NCBI RefSeq assembly: GCF_000002865.3
Contig: NW_001865079.1
Span: 81,858 to 145,857 of the forward strand
Length of the DNA stretch: 64,000 bases
Reading direction: 5' to 3'
Source of the DNA: Monosiga brevicollis MX1
Taxonomy: Eukaryota
Of the stretch, positions 40,923 through 58,502 are shown in pieces (position 1 is the first letter of the stretch; each line of letters starts with the position of its first letter). Position numbers and translations under genes: made by a program. The notes under the pieces are model-generated. The model was not told the DNA's origin and did no database searches. It was given only the letters and a program-made list of their open reading frames with translations.

Positions 40923-42152
40923 TTACGACTCTTGGGGGGCAGAATTGTTGTTGCGCGAGGTCTCGAGGGAGAGCTGTTTGAGGCGCTCGGCTTGGGCGGC
41001 AGCCAGGTCCGTCAATTTGCGGTTCCAGACATCTTGGACGGTGCGCTTGACGCGGCAGGAGAGGTGGGTGACATCGGGGGTGACGACCAAGTTGCCAGCG
41101 GAAGTCACGGGCTTGCCGTTGACGGTGAGGATGATGTCAAACTGTTGAATGCCAATCTGGTGGGCGGGGGTGTTGGAGATGACGTCGCGGGCAAAGGTGA
41201 AGGGGCCGACGGTCATGCCCTCAACACCAAAGTCGCCGGGGCCAACGGCGCCGCTGAGCTCGATTTCCTCAGTCTCCTCGTCGACGAACTCGCGGAGGAG
41301 GTTAAAGTCTTCGCTCACACCCTTGGGGTCCAGGGTGCCACCCAGGGAGGCGGGAATCTGGGTCGGGCCGAAAAAGGTTTCGAGGCCATCGCCCTTGGAA
41401 CCCACCAGCTGCACGCGCTCGCGCAACTTGGCGTTGACAAAGGGGCGCACGATGCCCCAGACCATGGACATGACCGCAGAGTGGTGGCAGAGGGCGATGG
41501 TACCGACACGAACGGGGAGGCGATCCTAAGTGTGCAGACATTTTGGGGTGGAACGAGTGAGCACCACGCACGAGGCGGGAGTTGCGGTGGGGGTTCGCTA
41601 GCGAGGCGTAGTGGAGCAACGGGAAGGGTATCGTACCTGGAGGAAGCGAATGACGTCGTGCTGGACTTCCGAGGTGAGGTCGGACCAGCCAAAGTTGGTG
41701 GCGTCGGCAATGACAGCGACACCAGTGCCGGCGAGCTGGGCCCCACGGCGCTGGAGAAGCTGTTCAAAGAGGTAGTAAAGGGCCTGAACAATGTGCTCCT
41801 TGCGGAAGGCGTTGAAGTTGAACTTGGAGTAGTCGCTGAAGAGAACGGTGTGGCCGAGGGGTCCAGGGGCGGGGAGGGGGGTCAGCATGCCGCTGCCCAG
41901 GACGTCCAGGAAGCGGACGGCGGTCATGGGGTGATGGTCCGAGCCGAGGTGCTCATCTTCCCAGGCCTCGAGGTTGAAGAGACGCTCCGAGGCCTTGGTG
42001 AGGTCGTACTTGGCGACGCGAAGGAAGCGAAGCAGGTAATCGTCGTCATCGTAGCGGATGGGAAGGCGAGTGGGGGCTTGACGGCGACGGGCATCGTTGT
42101 CAATGTTGCGGCGGAAAGCGGCAAGGGTGCCGGTGATGTCCGAAGGAGCCAT
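40923..42152 (-). CDS. CRAL-TRIO (Sec14/TTPA-like) lipid-binding protein with C-terminal PDZ domain; 2 exons
   Basis: DDDYLLRFLRVAKYD (CRAL-TRIO_N), LQ/DRLPVRV, IVRPFVNAKLRERV, IPASLGG. Then PDZ-like DVISNTPAHQIGIQQFDIILTVNGKPV. Intron ~41527-41636. Confidence 0.85.
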
Positions 42153-42373
42153 GGTGGGGCTTTGAGCTTGAGCTACGGAGGGAGATGGGTGATTGAACCC
42201 GGGGGATAGCGCGACCGGAGCGTGTTTGGCGGGATGAGTGATGGCGGAGGATGCGGGGTTGTTACTGGGCTCGGGGTTGGGAGCCGTGGACCACGGGATG
42301 GGAAAGGGAAATGGGACGGCCAGCGGCACTGCTGCCAGGGTGCTTGGTGTGTGATTGGTGTTGGGCAATGCCA

Positions 42374-42436
42374 TGGTGTGAGGGTGTGAGGGTGTGAGGG
42401 TGTGAGGGTGTGAGGGTGTGAGGGTGTGAGGGTGTG
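42374..42436. repeat. 8-bp tandem repeat (GGTGTGAG)n, ~7.5 copies
   Basis: Perfect period-8 G-rich array. Confidence 0.9.
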
Positions 42437-42765
42437 AAGCAGATCAGATCTTTCAAGACACACCACGGTGCGGCGTGGGCGCGGCGGATGGAGGGACAAA
42501 GGAGCGTGTCAACGACAACACAAGACACGACGCAAGATTGCGTCAAGACAAGCAGCAACAGCAACGGCACCAGTGGGCACACACTCTGGGTTCGGGCTGG
42601 ATCTTTCCACCAAAACAGACATTGGAAAAATGGCAGCGGGAATCAAAGCCGGCTCGTTCCCAATGGTGTTGATGTCTCGATGATGGCGTCGGTAGCGTGT
42701 TGGACAGCCGAGGGCTCCAGACGCATCATCACCACCACACTCTGATCATCAACAACTGGTGCTGA

Positions 42766-42797
<32 letters not shown>

Positions 42798-43508
42798 TGT
42801 GTGTTGCCGAGGCGTTGCATTTGGATCTGTGTGTGTATGTGTGTGTGTGTGTGTGTGGTGTGATGTGATGGCGGGGCAGTCATCGGGGTCAACAGGGGGC
42901 GCGATCCAACTTACGAGCAGCCATGATGATGATGATGATCGCGATAAAACACGCTAGAGTCCAAACTTCAAACCCAAATCAGACCAGTCGAAAACGGGGC
43001 AGCAACCAGTCGTAATGGCAGTGGTGTCCGTCCGTCAGTGAGGTCAGTGAGGTCGGAGAAGGGGGTCAGTGGCAGCAGAGAGGGATCACTGGATGTCCAG
43101 CAAGGAAAAAAATGGAGTCGTGGCCGTGTTGGGGTTCAAGATGTGGGCGGTGAGCAAGATCGGGCAGGGTCCTCCGTGTGTGTGGTAGATGCATGTATAG
43201 GGTGTGGAGGATCTGATGTTCATGTGTGGCAAAATTAAGTGTGAATGTGCTTGGCAATGTTTGTTTGGGTGTGGAGGTTTGGGGTGTGTGGTGTGGCAAA
43301 GGCGTGTGTTTTGTGTGGCGATGTGATGAGCCATCAGCACAATAACAAAAATCACATACGGGTTATTGCATTAAATTTTAGAGTTTATGTAGTTTTATTA
43401 AATTAATAAGAATTAGTTTATGTTGTATAATGATATTTAGTTGTAGCTGTGATGAGCGTCCGGTGCTTGATGCAAGACGACTCGCGCCCTTCATCACACA
43501 CACACACA

Positions 43509-43650
<142 letters not shown>

Positions 43651-43925
43651 GGTGTGACGCAACATGGAATCGGGGACATGATGTGAGGCAACACTTGGTC
43701 ATGGCGAAGTGTGCACATGTGTGGGAATACAACGTTGTTGGACGTTGGCGATGTGTGGGTGGGTGTGGTGTGATAGGGTGTGGTGCGGGTTCATTGCATG
43801 ACGTTGCAGATCGGCAGAGAGGTGTGTGTGCCACAGTGGCAAGATCAGCCCAACTCAAAAGTGTAACAAATCACACTTATAGCCGCTGGTGCAAGCTGCT
43901 CAAGGGCTTGCATAAGGATGAAAGC

Positions 43926-44003
43926 TGGTATCTAAAACTTACCTCTGTTAGTTTAAATTTTTCATCTGACATGTTAATTTATATTACATGTCTTTAAAAT
44001 ATA
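43926..44003 (+). repeat. Left copy of ~78-bp AT-rich direct repeat flanking the giant ORF
   Basis: TGGTATCTAAAACTTACCTCTGTTAGTTTAAATTTTTCATCTGACATGTTAATTTATATTA... matches 56407-56485. Confidence 0.92.
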
Positions 44004-44744
44004 AAGTCGGCACAGGTAGCTTCAGCCCGGCGAGCTGTTTCGGCGACTCGCGCGGACTGGACTGGCGCCTCGGAGCGTGAAGGCATGATGTGCAAAGAGC
44101 GCGCCTGGCGTGCATGTTGAGGCAATAAGGGCATCTACAGTGGAACGGATTCCTCCGAGATACATTCCAAGCAGCTGACAGTTCAAGCCCACCCGTCCCC
44201 ATCATCATTCACTGGCTTGCTTGTATTGTGTTCGCGTGCTTGTAAAACACAGTGAGTGTGCTTGTATCGGCGTGCTTCTCTGTCTGCATTGAAGATCGCA
44301 AGCCATTTGTCTTCACGCAACGCGCGTGTAAAAGTGCTTGCGTCTTTGATCGATTTGTTGGATGTGTACAAAGGTCAGTCGGGGGCGAGCGCTGCTACTT
44401 GGAGTGAGACGGGCAACCGCGATCGGGTAAGTAGACCAGCTTGTTCATCTCGACCCACCTCTCTTTTCCTTTCCTGTCTTTTGCTTCTTCTTCATCATCT
44501 TCTCTCATTCTCAAGCTGTGTACCTCTTTAGACGACAAGCGATCAGACGCCGGTCGTGTCAGACAGTGAAATTCTCAAGTGCTGCTCCCCAAACCGGCCG
44601 TGCAATCGCCGACACTACAGGCAACTGACAGTGAGCGCTTTGCAAAGCCTGCCATGAGCGATCGGCAGCCCTCTGGCAACCCCTCAGCGCACTTCATACA
44701 CCTGGCTCACTGCTGCATTTGCTCCGCCTGCCTCCTACCCAGCA

Positions 44745-47700
44745 ATGCCCGAAGTCGCCGCCGACAAAGGCAAGAACGGACGGCTGTCCAACGCCGCCAA
44801 GGCGGGGCATCGCCGCCACGTCTACCAAAACCCCAAGACCTCGAGGATCGAAAGGGGCTGGATGCAGCAGGAGCTTAATCGTGGCCGCACCTTCAACACT
44901 ATGCGCAACCTACCCGGCACCCACATCGACCACACGAGAAACCATCCTGATTTCTGTCGTACCCAATGGGCGTCAGACAACAGTAGCCGTGGTGCTCGTC
45001 TTGGCAAGGAAGGTGAAGCCATCCGCACCCGTGCACAGCCCAAGGCGCAAACAACGGGATGGAAAGGCCCACGCGGCGGCGGCGGCAGCAGCAGCAGCAG
45101 CGGCATTGGTAAAAGTGTCGGTGCTGGCACTCGTAGCGCTATGCAGGCAGCAAGCCGCACCGCCGCCCGCCAGACTGCACTGCGCACAGGCGCACGGATT
45201 GCTGGCAGATGGCTTGCGGGTGGTGCCGCGCGCGTGCTTCTGTGCAGCGTGCCTGGTGGCGCATTTTTCTCGGCCGCGCTGCTGGCCGTCGACCTCTACA
45301 TGAGCTACTACAACACTTGTGGGGGCGACGATGGTGGCCCCGGTCGTGGAAATCGCGAGATGGCCCGCGATCCGGGTGGGGTAGCCGTTCCTCGTGGAAA
45401 TCTGGAGGCCTTCAGCAAAGCCCCAGAACTTGCCGCCGACGATGCCGCTGCCGTGCTGGCCATTCTTATACCCCGTGCGGAGGCGGAGCTTCAAGGTCTT
45501 CCCTTCAGCTCTCGCACGGGTGACCTGCACTCCGCCGTGGTGCAGATCGTTGTGGCAGAACTCGCCACTAGCATCTACGTCGACAACGCCTACCCGTTTT
45601 TTTCCCTTCATTTCAACAAGGATGCCTGCCTTTACCCCGTGCTGCACCCGCTGCTGCGCGAGACGCTCGTGGGCCACGTCATCGCCACGCTGGACTACTA
45701 CCTCAAGGGGTTCCTCAACGGCGGCGTGTACCCCGTTGAATACCTGATGAACTGGCACGAAGGCAGCTGCGGGGTGCAGCGTGAGGAGCTTAGGCAACAC
45801 GTTGTTGACCTCCGCACCTTGGTGGCAACCCACGGTGGCGAGGGGGTTGCGTATAAGTCACTTCTCGAGATGCTGGCTGAGGCTGGCGTCGCAGACCTTG
45901 TAAGAGGGACCGATCAGCCCGAAGAGGCCACCAGCACCGGCAAAACCACCGACGCATCGGCCAGCAAGTTCCGCACCAGTTTTCGCATTATCGGGACCCT
46001 GGAGCGAGCCGAGCGCGATGGTGACGTCGTCGCCTTGGTGCCCGGTTTTCGTGTCGAATACACGGTGGAGACCACACCTGCTTATCAGAAGGTGTTAGAC
46101 GCTCATCTTGCTGAGCATGGCGTGTACCCAGATGGCTATGCCACTGTGCAGCGTGTGTATGCGCGCGCGGCTCGGGCTGCAGAGCAAGTCATGCCCCGCA
46201 TCCCTCTCTTTGCCCCCTACTTTGCCATGCTCCGCATCATCACAGCCTGCTCCGCACTGGTGACGTCGCTTCGGTCGACAGGGAAACTGCCACTCCTGAG
46301 TCTGCCAGTCGATGCATTCCGCACGGGGGCCAACTGCAAGCTGACACGCCTGACACCTCCTTTGTATCCCCCCCTGCCCGTGCGCTACTACAAGCAGCAC
46401 GTCATTTCGATACGTCTGCTAGACCTCGTCAACCAGCTGCGTGCCAACGACAACCTTTCTGCTCTCACGCTAGACTCGCGTCACACACGAGCCTTTGAGC
46501 CCTCCAAGCTGGATCGTGAGATGGAGAGGCTTTCCTTACGCGTCTTTGAACCAATGGCCGACGTTACTTCCGCCGTCCAAGCTGCTGTTGCTACACTGGC
46601 CCAGCGCCAGCTGCCAAGCGAAGTGGACTTTGCCAGTGTCGACCTGGACGCTCTCCAGACGCACGTTCAAAATCAGTTGACTGCAGTGGCCGACGCTTGG
46701 CCAACAGTGCTGCTGCCCCGAATGATTGTGGATACAACACGGCATTTACTGGCCACGTCCCTCTTTGATGACGAGCCGTCACAGCTGCCAAACGATGGCG
46801 GTGTGGACATTGAAGCTCATGAAAAAGCTGTCAGGGCCAGAATGCCCAGCAAAGAGGTGACGGAGCAGCTACTGCAGCCATTCCTGCGCCGCCTTTCGAC
46901 CATAGACACAGTGCCTGACCGCAGCACTGCCGTCCGCCAGCATTTTGCCGATGAACTCATCACGGCTTTCCGAGCGTCGGCACTGTTTCCTCCGTGCAAG
47001 TTTCGCGAGGAGAGCCGCTTGCGAAAGCAAATTTTGCACACGCAAACTCAGTTGCGTGAAGAGCTCGCCAAAATTGATGTTTATCAACGCAGCATGGAGA
47101 AGGCTACCGAGGAGTACCGGACATCCCAGCTTGAGGCGCTTGCACAGGAGGTCCAGGATCTACATGCAGGCTTTGACCGTCGGGTGCTCGCCGTGCCTCC
47201 CGGCTGTGCCGTTGACCCAGCCGCAGTACAAGCCTTTCGGCAGTGGCTAGCCGATCAGGAACGACAGTCGCGTCAGCAGATTGAGGAAAGAGTGCAGCGC
47301 CAGGTTACAAGCAATGCCCAGGCTTTGGATGACGCTCGTCGCGATGTCAATCAGAAGGTGCAGAAGTTCATCCAAGGAATCGAACATACACTGCAGGTGG
47401 AGCCAGAAAAGCGACTCATGGGCATCCTCTCGGAAAAAGCTTCAGCATATTCATCTCAGCTTGCGGATGGAATTGTCCAGCTTCATGCCCGCCAGTCGGC
47501 TATCATTTTCCTTGACGACAAGACGATAAAGGGAAGAGTCGTGTCTCGCTGCTTGGGCGTGGCGGATCGGAGCTTCCTCAATGGGCATCAGGAGGATCCG
47601 AGGATCATAGGGGGCTGCGGGGTCAGCCTTGAGGACCTAGAGGACAGCCCGCTTTTAGCCACCACCCTATCGACCGCTCAGGCACAACACCTGCGCGTAA

Positions 47701-56949: not shown

Positions 56950-57025
56950 CCCAATGGGGGGTTTGTCCCCTTCGAAGACAGAAATCCTGTCTTCGAAGCC
57001 AATAGGACAAACGCCACCCATTGGG
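56950..57025. other. Long inverted repeat / hairpin
   Basis: Perfect 12-bp inner stem CTTCGAAGACAG/CTGTCTTCGAAG with a 5-nt loop. Outer stems GTTTGTCC/GGACAAAC and CCCAATGGG/CCCATTGGG. Confidence 0.8.
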
Positions 57026-58369
57026 TGCGGAGGTTTGGTCTCTGGTCAAAAGCCCAAGTCTTGCCACTGGCCGTCCGAGTTGGATTCGCAACACGCCCGT
57101 GCCGCCGCTCGACTCTTGTGTCATGTTGGAACGAGAGAACAAGAGCCAACCTTTTTTTTTCATAGTCTTGACTCGCGCCAAACCAAGCGCACACCATCAA
57201 GCAAGCGCCCCACACCAAAAAAACACAGGCTTTCATCATGATAATGTTGTTATCACACTCCCTCCCTCCCCCTTTACGACTGAATCACTGAGACCAGACC
57301 AGAGCACGGCACCGCACGAGAGCACGCCCGTCGTCGAGTCGAGTGCATCATGTCACCCCTGTGGTCATCTCAGAACAGAAAAAAGTCCTGGGGGTTCCTT
57401 TGATTTTTTCCTTGGAATCATCATCTGCAGAAACCTGCATGGCAGACTGCACAAACCTTGAGGCACGCTACAGTTAATTCCTATGGGGACCAGGACTCTA
57501 CCGACACAACCCTGCAGATCACGTGCAGGAAGGCAACGATGGGGGTGTGGAAGGTGTTGCACAGGCTACGACTCGCAGTGTAACACCCTTTGCTTTCCAC
57601 CGGCACACAATGTGAGAGCTGGGTCAAGGTCAAGAGAGGTTGGCGGCACACACATTGTGTTCTCACACACACACTCAGAGAGAGCGCAAAGCAAAGGCAA
57701 AGCAAAGCAAGGCAAAGGTTGTGTTGTGTTGTGTGTTCATTATGATAAGGATCACAATGCCATTGGACCCCCTCCTAACTTGCACAAGCCGCCCCCGCCC
57801 CAATGGCAGCCTGATCTGATGGGTGAGGACTCGACACACGAGGGCACTGTCTCCGACGGGCACAGAGACGTGACCCAAGCCCAAGCGGCCCACATCAGGG
57901 GGCCCCAAGAAGGGCAGCGTGCAAGGTTAGGGAACAAGAAGGGGGGTGAACCCCATAAAGACCCTTTGACTTGCACACCGCCACCAGAAAACCACGAGAG
58001 AGCGACAGAGAGAGAGAGCGACAGAGAGAGAGAGAGGAGTGATACAAGATGCAACACACCTTTGTTACCTTTGCGTATGTACGTAACAAACAGCACAGAA
58101 CCGCATCTTGCGCGCTGTCCACCTTCCACTTGGCAAGGAAGTTACTCGCTACGACGCGCGGCTTGCTTCCGTACCCGACTCGTTCCAGGCGACGGTCGTG
58201 CTCTGGCTCTGGCTGGACGACTTGGAAACAGGGGGTCGACAGCCAGACAGACAGCCAGCCAAAGCATCAGAACACGAGTCATAGGCGTGCGTGTACATGG
58301 AATGGCAACCAACCAACCCGCTGTGCCCCAACACACACACACACGCATGGTGCGATCCGATCCGATACG

Positions 58370-58385
58370 CTCTCTCTCTCTAAAA

Positions 58386-58431
<46 letters not shown>

Positions 58432-58502
58432 TTCTTTTGTTCATTCCTTTGTTCATTCTTTTGTTCTCTCTCTCTCTCTCTCTCTTAATGTCTCTCTCTC
58501 TG

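What the first reader, a model, noticed from the sequence alone, without database searches (positions are those of the whole stretch)
44745..45006. N-terminal ~85 aa resemble a bacterial polymorphic-toxin nuclease (Ntox8/HNH-like)
Seen: NPKTSRIERGWMQQELNRGRTFNTMRNLPGTHIDHTRNHPDFCRTQWASDNSSRGAR. From my recollection of the family consensus, D/NPK.S...RGW..QE.N...R.PPG..L.H matches the Ntox8 toxin family, and the DH...NxSRG ending matches the beta-beta-alpha-metal (HNH/GH-E) nuclease pattern. The domain is small and basic and is set off by a GGGGSSSSSG linker, as toxin tips usually are. A toxin of this class at the N-terminus of a eukaryotic SecA-ankyrin protein would be unexpected.
Basis: partly seen in the sequence, partly recalled or inferred. 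Interest (0 to 1): 0.82.

Follow-up and report, generated by a model that had tools for sequence, protein, structure and literature searches.

The report
Eukaryotic giant protein with nuclease warhead
A eukaryote transcribes a 3,678-residue gene whose front end is a predicted DNA-cutting toxin domain, sitting in the slot where relatives in chlamydiae and Legionella-like bacteria carry different, swapped toxin-like domains, so it is likely a bacterial weapon system taken over by a eukaryote.

Summary
Residues 9-99 are a real domain (86 bits against a query-free profile; shuffles at most 7). Relatives sit at toxin-tip positions: C-termini of giant proteins, behind PT-TG and behind intein-like ends. 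The first half aligns with Ntox8 (98.9%, 48 columns), but Ntox8's HxxxH helix is replaced by a D62-H63...N79 beta-beta-alpha-metal site. So this is an unnamed HNH clade beside Ntox8, not Ntox8 itself; structure matches to HNH folds are consistent but weak. The larger result lies outside the finding. The tip precedes an unnamed 350-residue carrier domain found in 53 of 401 Chlamydiota and 18 of 203 Legionellales genomes, but in 3 of 401 sampled Gammaproteobacteria. There the N-terminal tip is swapped (Ntox28, Ntox50, ADP-ribosyltransferase, lipase), a matching upstream gene changes with it, and a SecA-like ATPase is adjacent or fused. The window's gene is spliced and polyadenylated, so it is a eukaryotic gene. 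Best reading: an inverted polymorphic toxin system, likely acquired from an intracellular bacterium. Activity, target and export are untested.

The parts
44769..45041 (+). Toxin tip domain, residues 9-99: predicted HNH (beta-beta-alpha-metal) nuclease
44787..44942 (+). Helical first half of the tip (residues 15-66), shared with Ntox8
   Evidence: hhalign 98.9% over 48 columns; 22-23 of 47 identities to P0020, P0022, P0024
44928..44981 (+). Predicted active site: D62, H63 (strand 59-63), R72 (strand 71-75), N79 (helix 76-80)
   Evidence: H63, R72, N79 invariant in 12 of 12 rows, D62 in 10 of 12; secondary structure from the model; catalytic roles inferred from known HNH chemistry
45075..45104 (+). 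Gly/Ser linker, residues 111-120
   Evidence: sequence
45105..45314 (+). Ala/Gly-rich segment with one hydrophobic stretch (residues about 164-184); candidate membrane-inserting region
   Evidence: hydropathy 2.06 over 19 residues; P0022 has weak Gly-zipper matches in this slot; function inferred
45357..46424 (+). Unnamed conserved carrier domain (residues 205-560; GGV, PFFSLHFN, LDY.LKG.LNGG motifs)
   Evidence: no Pfam, NCBIfam, PDB or Atlas match
47604..47621 (+). IIGGCG motif (residue 954), conserved after a variable insert
   Evidence: 37 of 40 bacterial carriers with enough downstream sequence
48081..52181 (+). Ankyrin-repeat region (about residues 1113-2479)
   Evidence: Pfam Ank_2, 9 stretches; limits from BLASTP to relatives
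52947..53448 (+). 33-nt tandem repeat coding an 11-residue Pro/Lys/Ala spacer
53598..55223 (+). SecA-like DEAD ATPase (residues 2952-3493) with Walker A and DEVD motifs present
44427..44531 (+). GT..AG intron 1 in the 5' UTR
   Evidence: joint in run X3; ends checked
44631..44742 (+). GT..AG intron 2 in the 5' UTR, ending 2 nt before the ATG
   Evidence: joint in runs X3 and X6, one study
55782..56077 (+). 3' UTR ending in a non-templated poly(A) tail at 56077
   Evidence: loose A-run in runs X3 and X5; no A-run in the window there
44745..55781 (+). Whole coding region, one open frame, 3,678 aa (P0001)
   Evidence: no joint inside the coding stretches laid

Best explanation
The first 100 residues are a predicted HNH-fold nuclease toxin tip, related to Ntox8, in the interchangeable N-terminal slot of a tip-carrier-ankyrin-SecA-like giant protein that this eukaryote transcribes and likely acquired from an intracellular bacterium to use as a weapon. 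Shown: the tip family and its tip positions; the carrier family and its range; tip swapping on the carrier tree; an upstream gene that changes with the tip in bacteria; linkage to a SecA-like ATPase; splicing and polyadenylation here. Inferred: HNH fold (about 0.9); metal-dependent nuclease activity through D62, H63 and N79 (about 0.75); upstream bacterial genes act as immunity proteins (about 0.7); bacterial origin of the eukaryotic gene (about 0.75). Proposed and untested (about 0.45): the protein is made in the cytosol without a signal peptide, the ankyrins dock on a target, the SecA-like ATPase feeds the chain N-terminus first across a membrane helped by the hydrophobic segment and carrier, and the tip cuts the DNA of an engulfed or invading bacterium.
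For: Tip: 14 true relatives among 19 hits. Five long ones carry it in their last 100-110 residues, one behind PT-TG (65 bits); two short ones carry it behind intein-type ends (P0023 above cut-off, P0021 below); three pass the Ntox8 cut-off. L001 is an RHS toxin with this kind of tip followed by DUF2750 (= Imm16, the Ntox8 immunity family in PMC3482391). Fold: model pLDDT 75, two helices then strand-loop-strand-helix; the top 8 and 14 of 21 listed Foldseek rows are HNH-fold proteins; best VIA match is the teneurin C-terminal GHH domain, Z 4.4-4.6, rmsd 2.3-3.1, 55-60 residues; Atlas leads are HNH and GH-E. Family: P0022 has Ntox8 (50 bits) at its N-terminus before the same carrier; other carriers bear Scabin-like ART, Ntox50, Ntox28 or lipase above cut-off. 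Swapping: 67 tips fall into 10 unrelated clusters; monophyly of three tip classes is rejected, p-AU 2.5e-4, 1.1e-4, 2.7e-5; three starred sister pairs differ in both tip and upstream gene. Tip and upstream gene agree in 43 pairs, 7 share the tip only, 0 the upstream gene only, 140 neither; 0 of 10,000 shuffles reach 43. A SecA-like gene is in 36 of 67 loci, 29 of 40 with room downstream, fused to the carrier in at least 3. The window's SecA domain groups with the fused ART-tipped proteins P0002 and L008, plus L022, at 99/95. Expression.
Against: No structural match is significant (Foldseek E at least 0.4; VIA Z under 5, which the tool calls common; Atlas scores under 0.9). No Pfam toxin model hits the tip. 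The query departs from 11 of 11 relatives at two positions next to the site (L56 for Pro, H60 for Asp). 46 of 59 bacterial N-termini have no Pfam match, and many Legionella-type ones look like Gly-rich helices without an enzyme. The phylogenetically independent test of tip and upstream gene is not significant (5 pairs, p 0.125), and neighbours can travel together without binding. No immunity-like gene was seen beside the window's gene (upstream DNA is 5' UTR; 16 window ORFs scanned). This tip clade was not found in 400 Chlamydiota genomes or five chosen carrier-bearing genomes, and its closest named relatives are eukaryotic, so the tip may have been added after transfer. The carrier branch is long and compositionally odd; the trees have no outgroup, so direction of transfer is not shown. 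Nothing here shows export or a target.
Confidence: 0.62

Rival explanations
1. Same nuclease tip, but an internal defence effector rather than an exported toxin: the ankyrins sense an invader, the SecA-like ATPase acts as a switch or unfoldase, and the nuclease cuts invader or own DNA, much as NLR-type or toxin-antitoxin systems do.
For: No signal peptide or N-terminal hydrophobic stretch. Effector at the N-terminus, with repeats and an ATPase in one chain. In L002 the SecA-like neighbour is fused to NACHT and HEAT repeats. No immunity gene seen at the window locus.
Against: The tips are drawn from families known as exported polymorphic-toxin tips (PMC3482391, table passages). A matched upstream gene per tip class and a hydrophobic segment after the tip fit delivery to other cells. 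Some chlamydial carriers without ankyrins or SecA begin with signal-peptide-like hydrophobic N-termini (L043, L049, L050, L055, L059, L060; read by eye).
Confidence: 0.22
2. The tip has the HNH fold but is a catalytically dead or weakened relic that now only binds nucleic acid or a partner, like the inactive GHH domain of teneurins.
For: L56 and H60 differ from 11 of 11 relatives. Best structural match is teneurin, whose GHH domain is described as inactive (PMC3482391, section 21). No protecting partner seen. Long carrier branch.
Against: D62, H63, R72 and N79 are all kept. The frame is intact over 11 kb and transcribed. SecA motifs are intact.
Confidence: 0.12
3. The domain is a plain member of Ntox8 (PF15545), as first proposed.
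For: First half matches Ntox8-positive proteins best, 22-23 of 47 identities against 12-20 for the DIDHTR clade (those proteins were picked by this very similarity). HxR motif present.
Against: No PF15545 hit at E up to 1. Second half has 3-7 identities to Ntox8 rows against 14-21 to the DIDHTR clade, and lacks the H..QH helix.
Confidence: 0.03
4. The resemblance is chance, or the segment is DUF3565, or the gene is bacterial contamination.
For: DUF3565 scores 27.2 bits against a cut-off of 25 over residues 56-89. The coding region has no intron.
Against: DUF3565 hits 1 of 12 family members. Profile score 86.5 against 7.3 for shuffles. Spliced 5' UTR and poly(A) tail; GC and GC3 match neighbouring eukaryotic genes.
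Confidence: 0.01

Closest known systems
Ntox8 (PF15545) with Imm16/DUF2750
   Same: Helical first half up to the first His; HxR motif; toxin-tip contexts; already noted in eukaryotes (dictyostelids) in PMC3482391.
   Different: Second half has D-H...N instead of HxxxH; no Pfam hit; N-terminal position; no DUF2750 seen beside it.
HNH/EndoVII toxin clades (GH-E, GHH, DHNNK; teneurin C-terminal domain)
   Same: Predicted strand-loop-strand-helix metal finger behind helices; best though weak structure matches.
   Different: No profile hit to any named clade; very short loop; DIDHTRN...DN.R signature.
Classical polymorphic toxin systems (RHS, CDI, MafB, LXG; PMC3482391)
   Same: Constant carrier, swapped tips from shared toxin families, a tip-matched small neighbour gene.
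   Different: Polarity is inverted: tips N-terminal, matched gene upstream. Partner is a SecA-like ATPase, not a known secretion system. Carrier matches no library family.
Giant proteins with divergent SecA DEAD domains (phage WO EAM, PMC5062602; Omnitrophota, 10.1101/2023.11.21.568195; actinobacterial giant toxins, PMC8195603; Amoebophilus effectors, PMC3482391)
   Same: SecA-like ATPase inside a very large protein, proposed in two of these papers to export it; links to endosymbionts and eukaryotes.
   Different: The passages read describe neither this carrier domain nor swapped N-terminal tips with matched upstream genes; the carrier was not found in annotated phages or plasmids.

Membership tests
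Ntox8 (PF15545) | Score above the Pfam cut-off (25 bits) | tested here: not met
   No hit at E up to 1
Ntox8 (PF15545) | HxR motif (PMC3482391 table) | tested here: met
   H63-T-R65, aligned with Ntox8 H.RG
Ntox8 (PF15545) | HxxxH motif in the C-terminal helix | tested here: not met
   Replaced by DN..R; the local HTRNH is at another position and its last His is in 2 of 12 rows
Ntox8 (PF15545) | Adjacent Imm16/DUF2750 gene | tested here: inconclusive
   Present at L001; not seen among 16 window ORFs, but intron-split genes were not modelled
HNH/EndoVII (beta-beta-alpha-metal) superfamily | Strand-loop-strand-helix core | tested here: met
   Predicted model: strands 59-63 and 71-75, helix 76-80, pLDDT about 80-90
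HNH/EndoVII (beta-beta-alpha-metal) superfamily | Conserved His after the first strand and Asn or His metal ligand in the helix | tested here: met
   H63 and N79 invariant in 12 of 12, D62 in 10 of 12; roles assigned from recalled HNH chemistry
HNH/EndoVII (beta-beta-alpha-metal) superfamily | Significant structural or profile match to a solved member | tested here: inconclusive
   Foldseek E at least 3.7 in PDB but top 8 rows all HNH fold; VIA Z 4.4-4.6; no PDB sequence hit
HNH/EndoVII (beta-beta-alpha-metal) superfamily | Metal-dependent nuclease activity | not testable with these tools
   needs an assay
Polymorphic toxin system | Constant carrier with interchangeable toxin tips | tested here: met
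Polymorphic toxin system | Toxin at the C-terminus | tested here: not met
   Tips are N-terminal in this family
Polymorphic toxin system | Cognate immunity gene next to the toxin | tested here: inconclusive
   Upstream gene class follows tip class in 19 of 20 bacterial loci; independent-pair test not significant; none seen in the window
Polymorphic toxin system | Export and delivery into another cell | not testable with these tools
   only inferred from the SecA-like partner
DUF3565 (PF12088) | Family-wide match | tested here: not met
   Query 27.2 bits but 1 of 12 members

The most novel reading that the evidence does not exclude
An undescribed, polarity-inverted polymorphic toxin system of protist-associated bacteria (upstream immunity gene, N-terminal swapped tip, unnamed carrier, ankyrins, dedicated SecA-like ATPase as private translocation motor) was captured whole by a eukaryote, fitted with spliceosomal introns and a new HNH tip, and is used to deliver a nuclease into engulfed or invading bacteria.
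Probability: 0.35. Interest if true: 0.9.

Novelty: new variant of a known kind. Interest (0 to 1): 0.76.

Why it matters
It gives a testable function to the unexplained SecA-like domains of giant endosymbiont and eukaryotic proteins, defines a toxin-partner cassette system in about an eighth of sampled Chlamydiota genomes and a tenth of Legionellales, places Ntox8 next to the HNH nucleases, and offers a case of a eukaryote expressing what looks like a whole bacterial toxin-delivery protein. The unnamed tips and their matched upstream genes are a ready list of candidate new toxin-immunity pairs.

Tried and rejected
No whole genome is held for the window, so paralogues, immunity genes and copies of the flanking repeat elsewhere could not be counted. 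Word-based search with the tip among longer proteins: none. Single-sequence fold: pLDDT 55, not used. PDB sequence searches with the tip, its profile and the carrier profile: nothing credible. NCBIfam: nothing for tip or carrier. Viral structure library: weak rows, many named HNH, none with E under 0.4. Tip in viral contigs, plasmids and sampled genomes: none; carrier in plasmids and phages: none. Four of the 19 phmmer hits (P0007, P0009, P0013, P0019) are repeat artefacts and were dropped. My idea that the C-terminal-tip proteins (P0008, P0010, P0015, P0018) share the carrier domain through a similar DYxLK motif was not supported: hhalign probability 0.1%. The carrier was not folded (both fold jobs went to the tip); the Atlas gave no usable hit. 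The complex predictor was not available, so binding of an upstream gene product to its tip was not modelled. No listed run is on record as RNA; RNA status of X3-X6 rests on spliced joints, poly(A) and uncovered intergenic DNA. Rfam: none in 42000-58500. Three look-ups of earlier findings returned nothing. The P0001-P0022 join in the carrier tree is between two long branches and is not counted as support.

Full report
Observation. The finding covers residues 1-87 of one open frame, 44745-55781 +, 3,678 aa. The quoted motifs and the Gly/Ser linker (residues 111-120) are present. Pfam finds ankyrins and SecA-type domains downstream, and at the N-terminus only DUF3565 at 27.2 bits; that match recurs in 1 of 12 family members and is set aside. 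The window is eukaryotic: HECT, tyrosine kinase and CBM21 domains and a polymerase subunit closest to RNA polymerase I RPA2. A protist related to animals is my inference from the tyrosine kinase; the organism was not identified.

The gene is real and eukaryotic. Contigs of runs X3 and X6 (one study) skip GT..AG introns at 44427-44531 and 44631-44742 in the 5' UTR. X3 and X5 end at 56077 with a non-templated A-run, X3-X5 leave most intergenic DNA uncovered, and X2 runs through it. None of these runs is on record as RNA. ATG 44745 is the first in-frame ATG of the spliced form. Contigs break at the linker repeat (45065-45113), so no single contig bridges tip and carrier; the genomic frame is continuous. 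GC and GC3 match neighbouring genes.

The tip family. phmmer with residues 1-106 against 1.84 billion representatives gave 19 hits at E up to 0.001: self, 4 repeat artefacts (dropped), 9 proteins with an NPxGxD[IV]DHTR...RxQ...N signature, 2 with a GH variant, and 3 that pass the Ntox8 cut-off. Five long ones carry the domain at the extreme C-terminus, one of them behind PT-TG; the two GH variants follow intein-type ends (P0023 above cut-off, P0021 below). Two are named eukaryotic: Clastostelium recurvatum and Choanoeca perplexa. A query-free profile scores the query 86.5 bits against at most 7.3 for 500 shuffles. The alignment keeps R37, H63, R72 and N79 in 12 of 12 rows and D62 in 10. The only metagenome locus found, 1 of 110 candidate stretches, is an RHS toxin with a canonical Ntox8-type tip followed by DUF2750.

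Relation to Ntox8 and HNH. Profile comparison aligns 48 columns with a four-sequence Ntox8 set at 98.9% and stops just after the first His. The query's first half is closest to Ntox8-positive proteins (22-23 of 47), its second half to the DIDHTR clade (14-21 identities against 3-7), so the tip may itself be a recombinant; the Ntox8 proteins were picked by that same similarity. PMC3482391 defines Ntox8 by HxR and HxxxH; the first is met, the second is not. The model from 12 sequences (pLDDT 75) has two helices followed by strand-loop-strand-helix. Foldseek finds nothing significant, yet its top 8 and 14 of 21 listed rows are HNH-fold proteins; VIA's best match is the teneurin C-terminal domain at Z 4.4-4.6, rmsd 2.3-3.1, which the tool rates as common; Atlas leads are HNH and GH-E at 0.84-0.87. 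Each is weak; together with the D-H...N pattern (roles recalled from HNH enzymes, not from a call) they make an HNH nuclease about 0.9 likely. Against: L56 and H60 differ from 11 of 11 relatives.

The carrier family. Searching with residues 1-560 returned five other long ankyrin proteins that share residues about 205-560 but not the tip; P0002 starts with a Scabin-like ADP-ribosyltransferase and also ends in SecA, and P0005 has Ntox50. P0022 has Ntox8 at its N-terminus before the same carrier; its origin is unnamed. The carrier matches no Pfam, NCBIfam, PDB or Atlas entry. It was found in 67 GTDB loci, mostly titled Chlamydiota, Legionellales and other host-associated groups, 30 further proteins, 53 of 401 Chlamydiota, 18 of 203 Legionellales (3 more not scored) and 3 of 401 sampled Gammaproteobacteria genomes (each set includes its positive centre genome). 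Of 59 locus N-termini, 6 pass the Ntox28 cut-off and 4 more match below it, 1 passes Lipase_3, 2 match Scabin-like below cut-off, and 46 match nothing. 54 of 94 N-termini share one leader ending in a WPxLxAAG-like motif; the window protein lacks it. One hit is annotated in the sponge Ephydatia (P0041) but its carrier is identical to that of an unnamed ENA protein and groups with a gammaproteobacterium, so it may be a symbiont.

Swapping and partners. 67 chlamydial-type tips form 10 clusters. 24 loci have a co-oriented gene within 120 bp upstream; I dropped four (two SecA-like genes, one piece of a tip, one without a tip class). In the other 20, upstream class follows tip class in all but L028: 43 pairs share both, 7 the tip only, 0 the upstream gene only, 140 neither; 0 of 10,000 shuffles reach this. 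On the carrier tree three tip classes are rejected as clades and three starred sister pairs differ in both tip and upstream gene; the independent-pair sign test has only 5 pairs and p 0.125. This shows cassette swapping; immunity is inferred. A SecA-like gene lies in 36 of 67 loci, 29 of the 40 with at least 2.5 kb downstream, fused to the carrier in L007-L009 (ten spot-checked with Pfam).

Origin. Without P0022, the window's carrier lies on a long branch in a mainly gammaproteobacterial group (97/84); its SecA domain groups with P0002, L008 and L022 (99/95). Both trees are unrooted, lack canonical SecA and lack broad eukaryotic sampling, and some rows were left out as near-duplicates. Transfer from an intracellular bacterium is favoured by distribution and by the intron-free coding region, not shown. 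The tip clade was not found in the chlamydial genomes searched, so it may have been added in eukaryotes.

Mechanism. I commit to a delivered nuclease: cytosolic synthesis, ankyrin docking, ATP-driven feeding of the N-terminus across a membrane, DNA cleavage in an engulfed or invading bacterium. Only the parts list, the swapping, the linkage and the expression are shown. An internal-defence role (0.22) and a dead relic (0.12) remain open.

Literature. PMC3482391: passages, sections 21 and 37; its supplement is held as only 1,214 characters, so Additional File 1, which may show the dictyostelid Ntox8 architectures, was not seen and could bear on novelty. PMC5062602, PMC8195603, PMC11077975 and 10.1101/2023.11.21.568195: passages only. 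Ten searches (listings and abstract starts) found no description of this carrier with N-terminal swapped tips; the library lacks most subscription papers.

Verdict. A new HNH-type tip clade beside Ntox8, on an apparently undescribed, inverted polymorphic toxin scaffold, expressed by a eukaryote. New variant of a known kind; interest 0.76.

Noticed in passing
window 43922-43986 and 56403-56468: A 66-bp AT-rich direct repeat, 95% identical, brackets the whole transcription unit 12.5 kb apart; only two copies in the window. Possibly ends of a mobile unit or a dispersed repeat.
   Followed up: partly
P0008, P0010 (Clastostelium), P0015, P0018 (Choanoeca): A second eukaryotic giant-protein family (J-domain-like start, FYVE finger, DYxLK domain) carries the same nuclease tip at its C-terminus; no link to the carrier by hhalign.
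   Followed up: partly
L002:1842-9113: SecA-like ATPase fused to NACHT and HEAT repeats directly upstream of a 3,400-aa carrier protein.
   Followed up: no
L007:1092-4466: MobA/MobL relaxase-helicase gene just upstream of a fused carrier gene, hinting at a mobile element; the record's title names Francisella tularensis but the carrier is nearly identical to that of a Thiotrichales MAG, L008.
   Followed up: no
L043, L049, L050, L054, L055, L057, L059, L060: A shorter chlamydial subgroup (about 730-1,060 aa) with no SecA-like neighbour; most have signal-peptide-like starts and one fixed tip class.
   Followed up: no
L023:1327-1977: Ntox28 domain in a separate frame just upstream of its carrier, a split or frameshifted copy.
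   Followed up: no
window 44006-44744: The spliced 5' UTR holds four upstream ATGs with short frames of 4-53 codons, which could damp translation.
   Followed up: no
window 56950-57025: Imperfect inverted repeat (hairpin) downstream of the gene; no Rfam match.
   Followed up: partly
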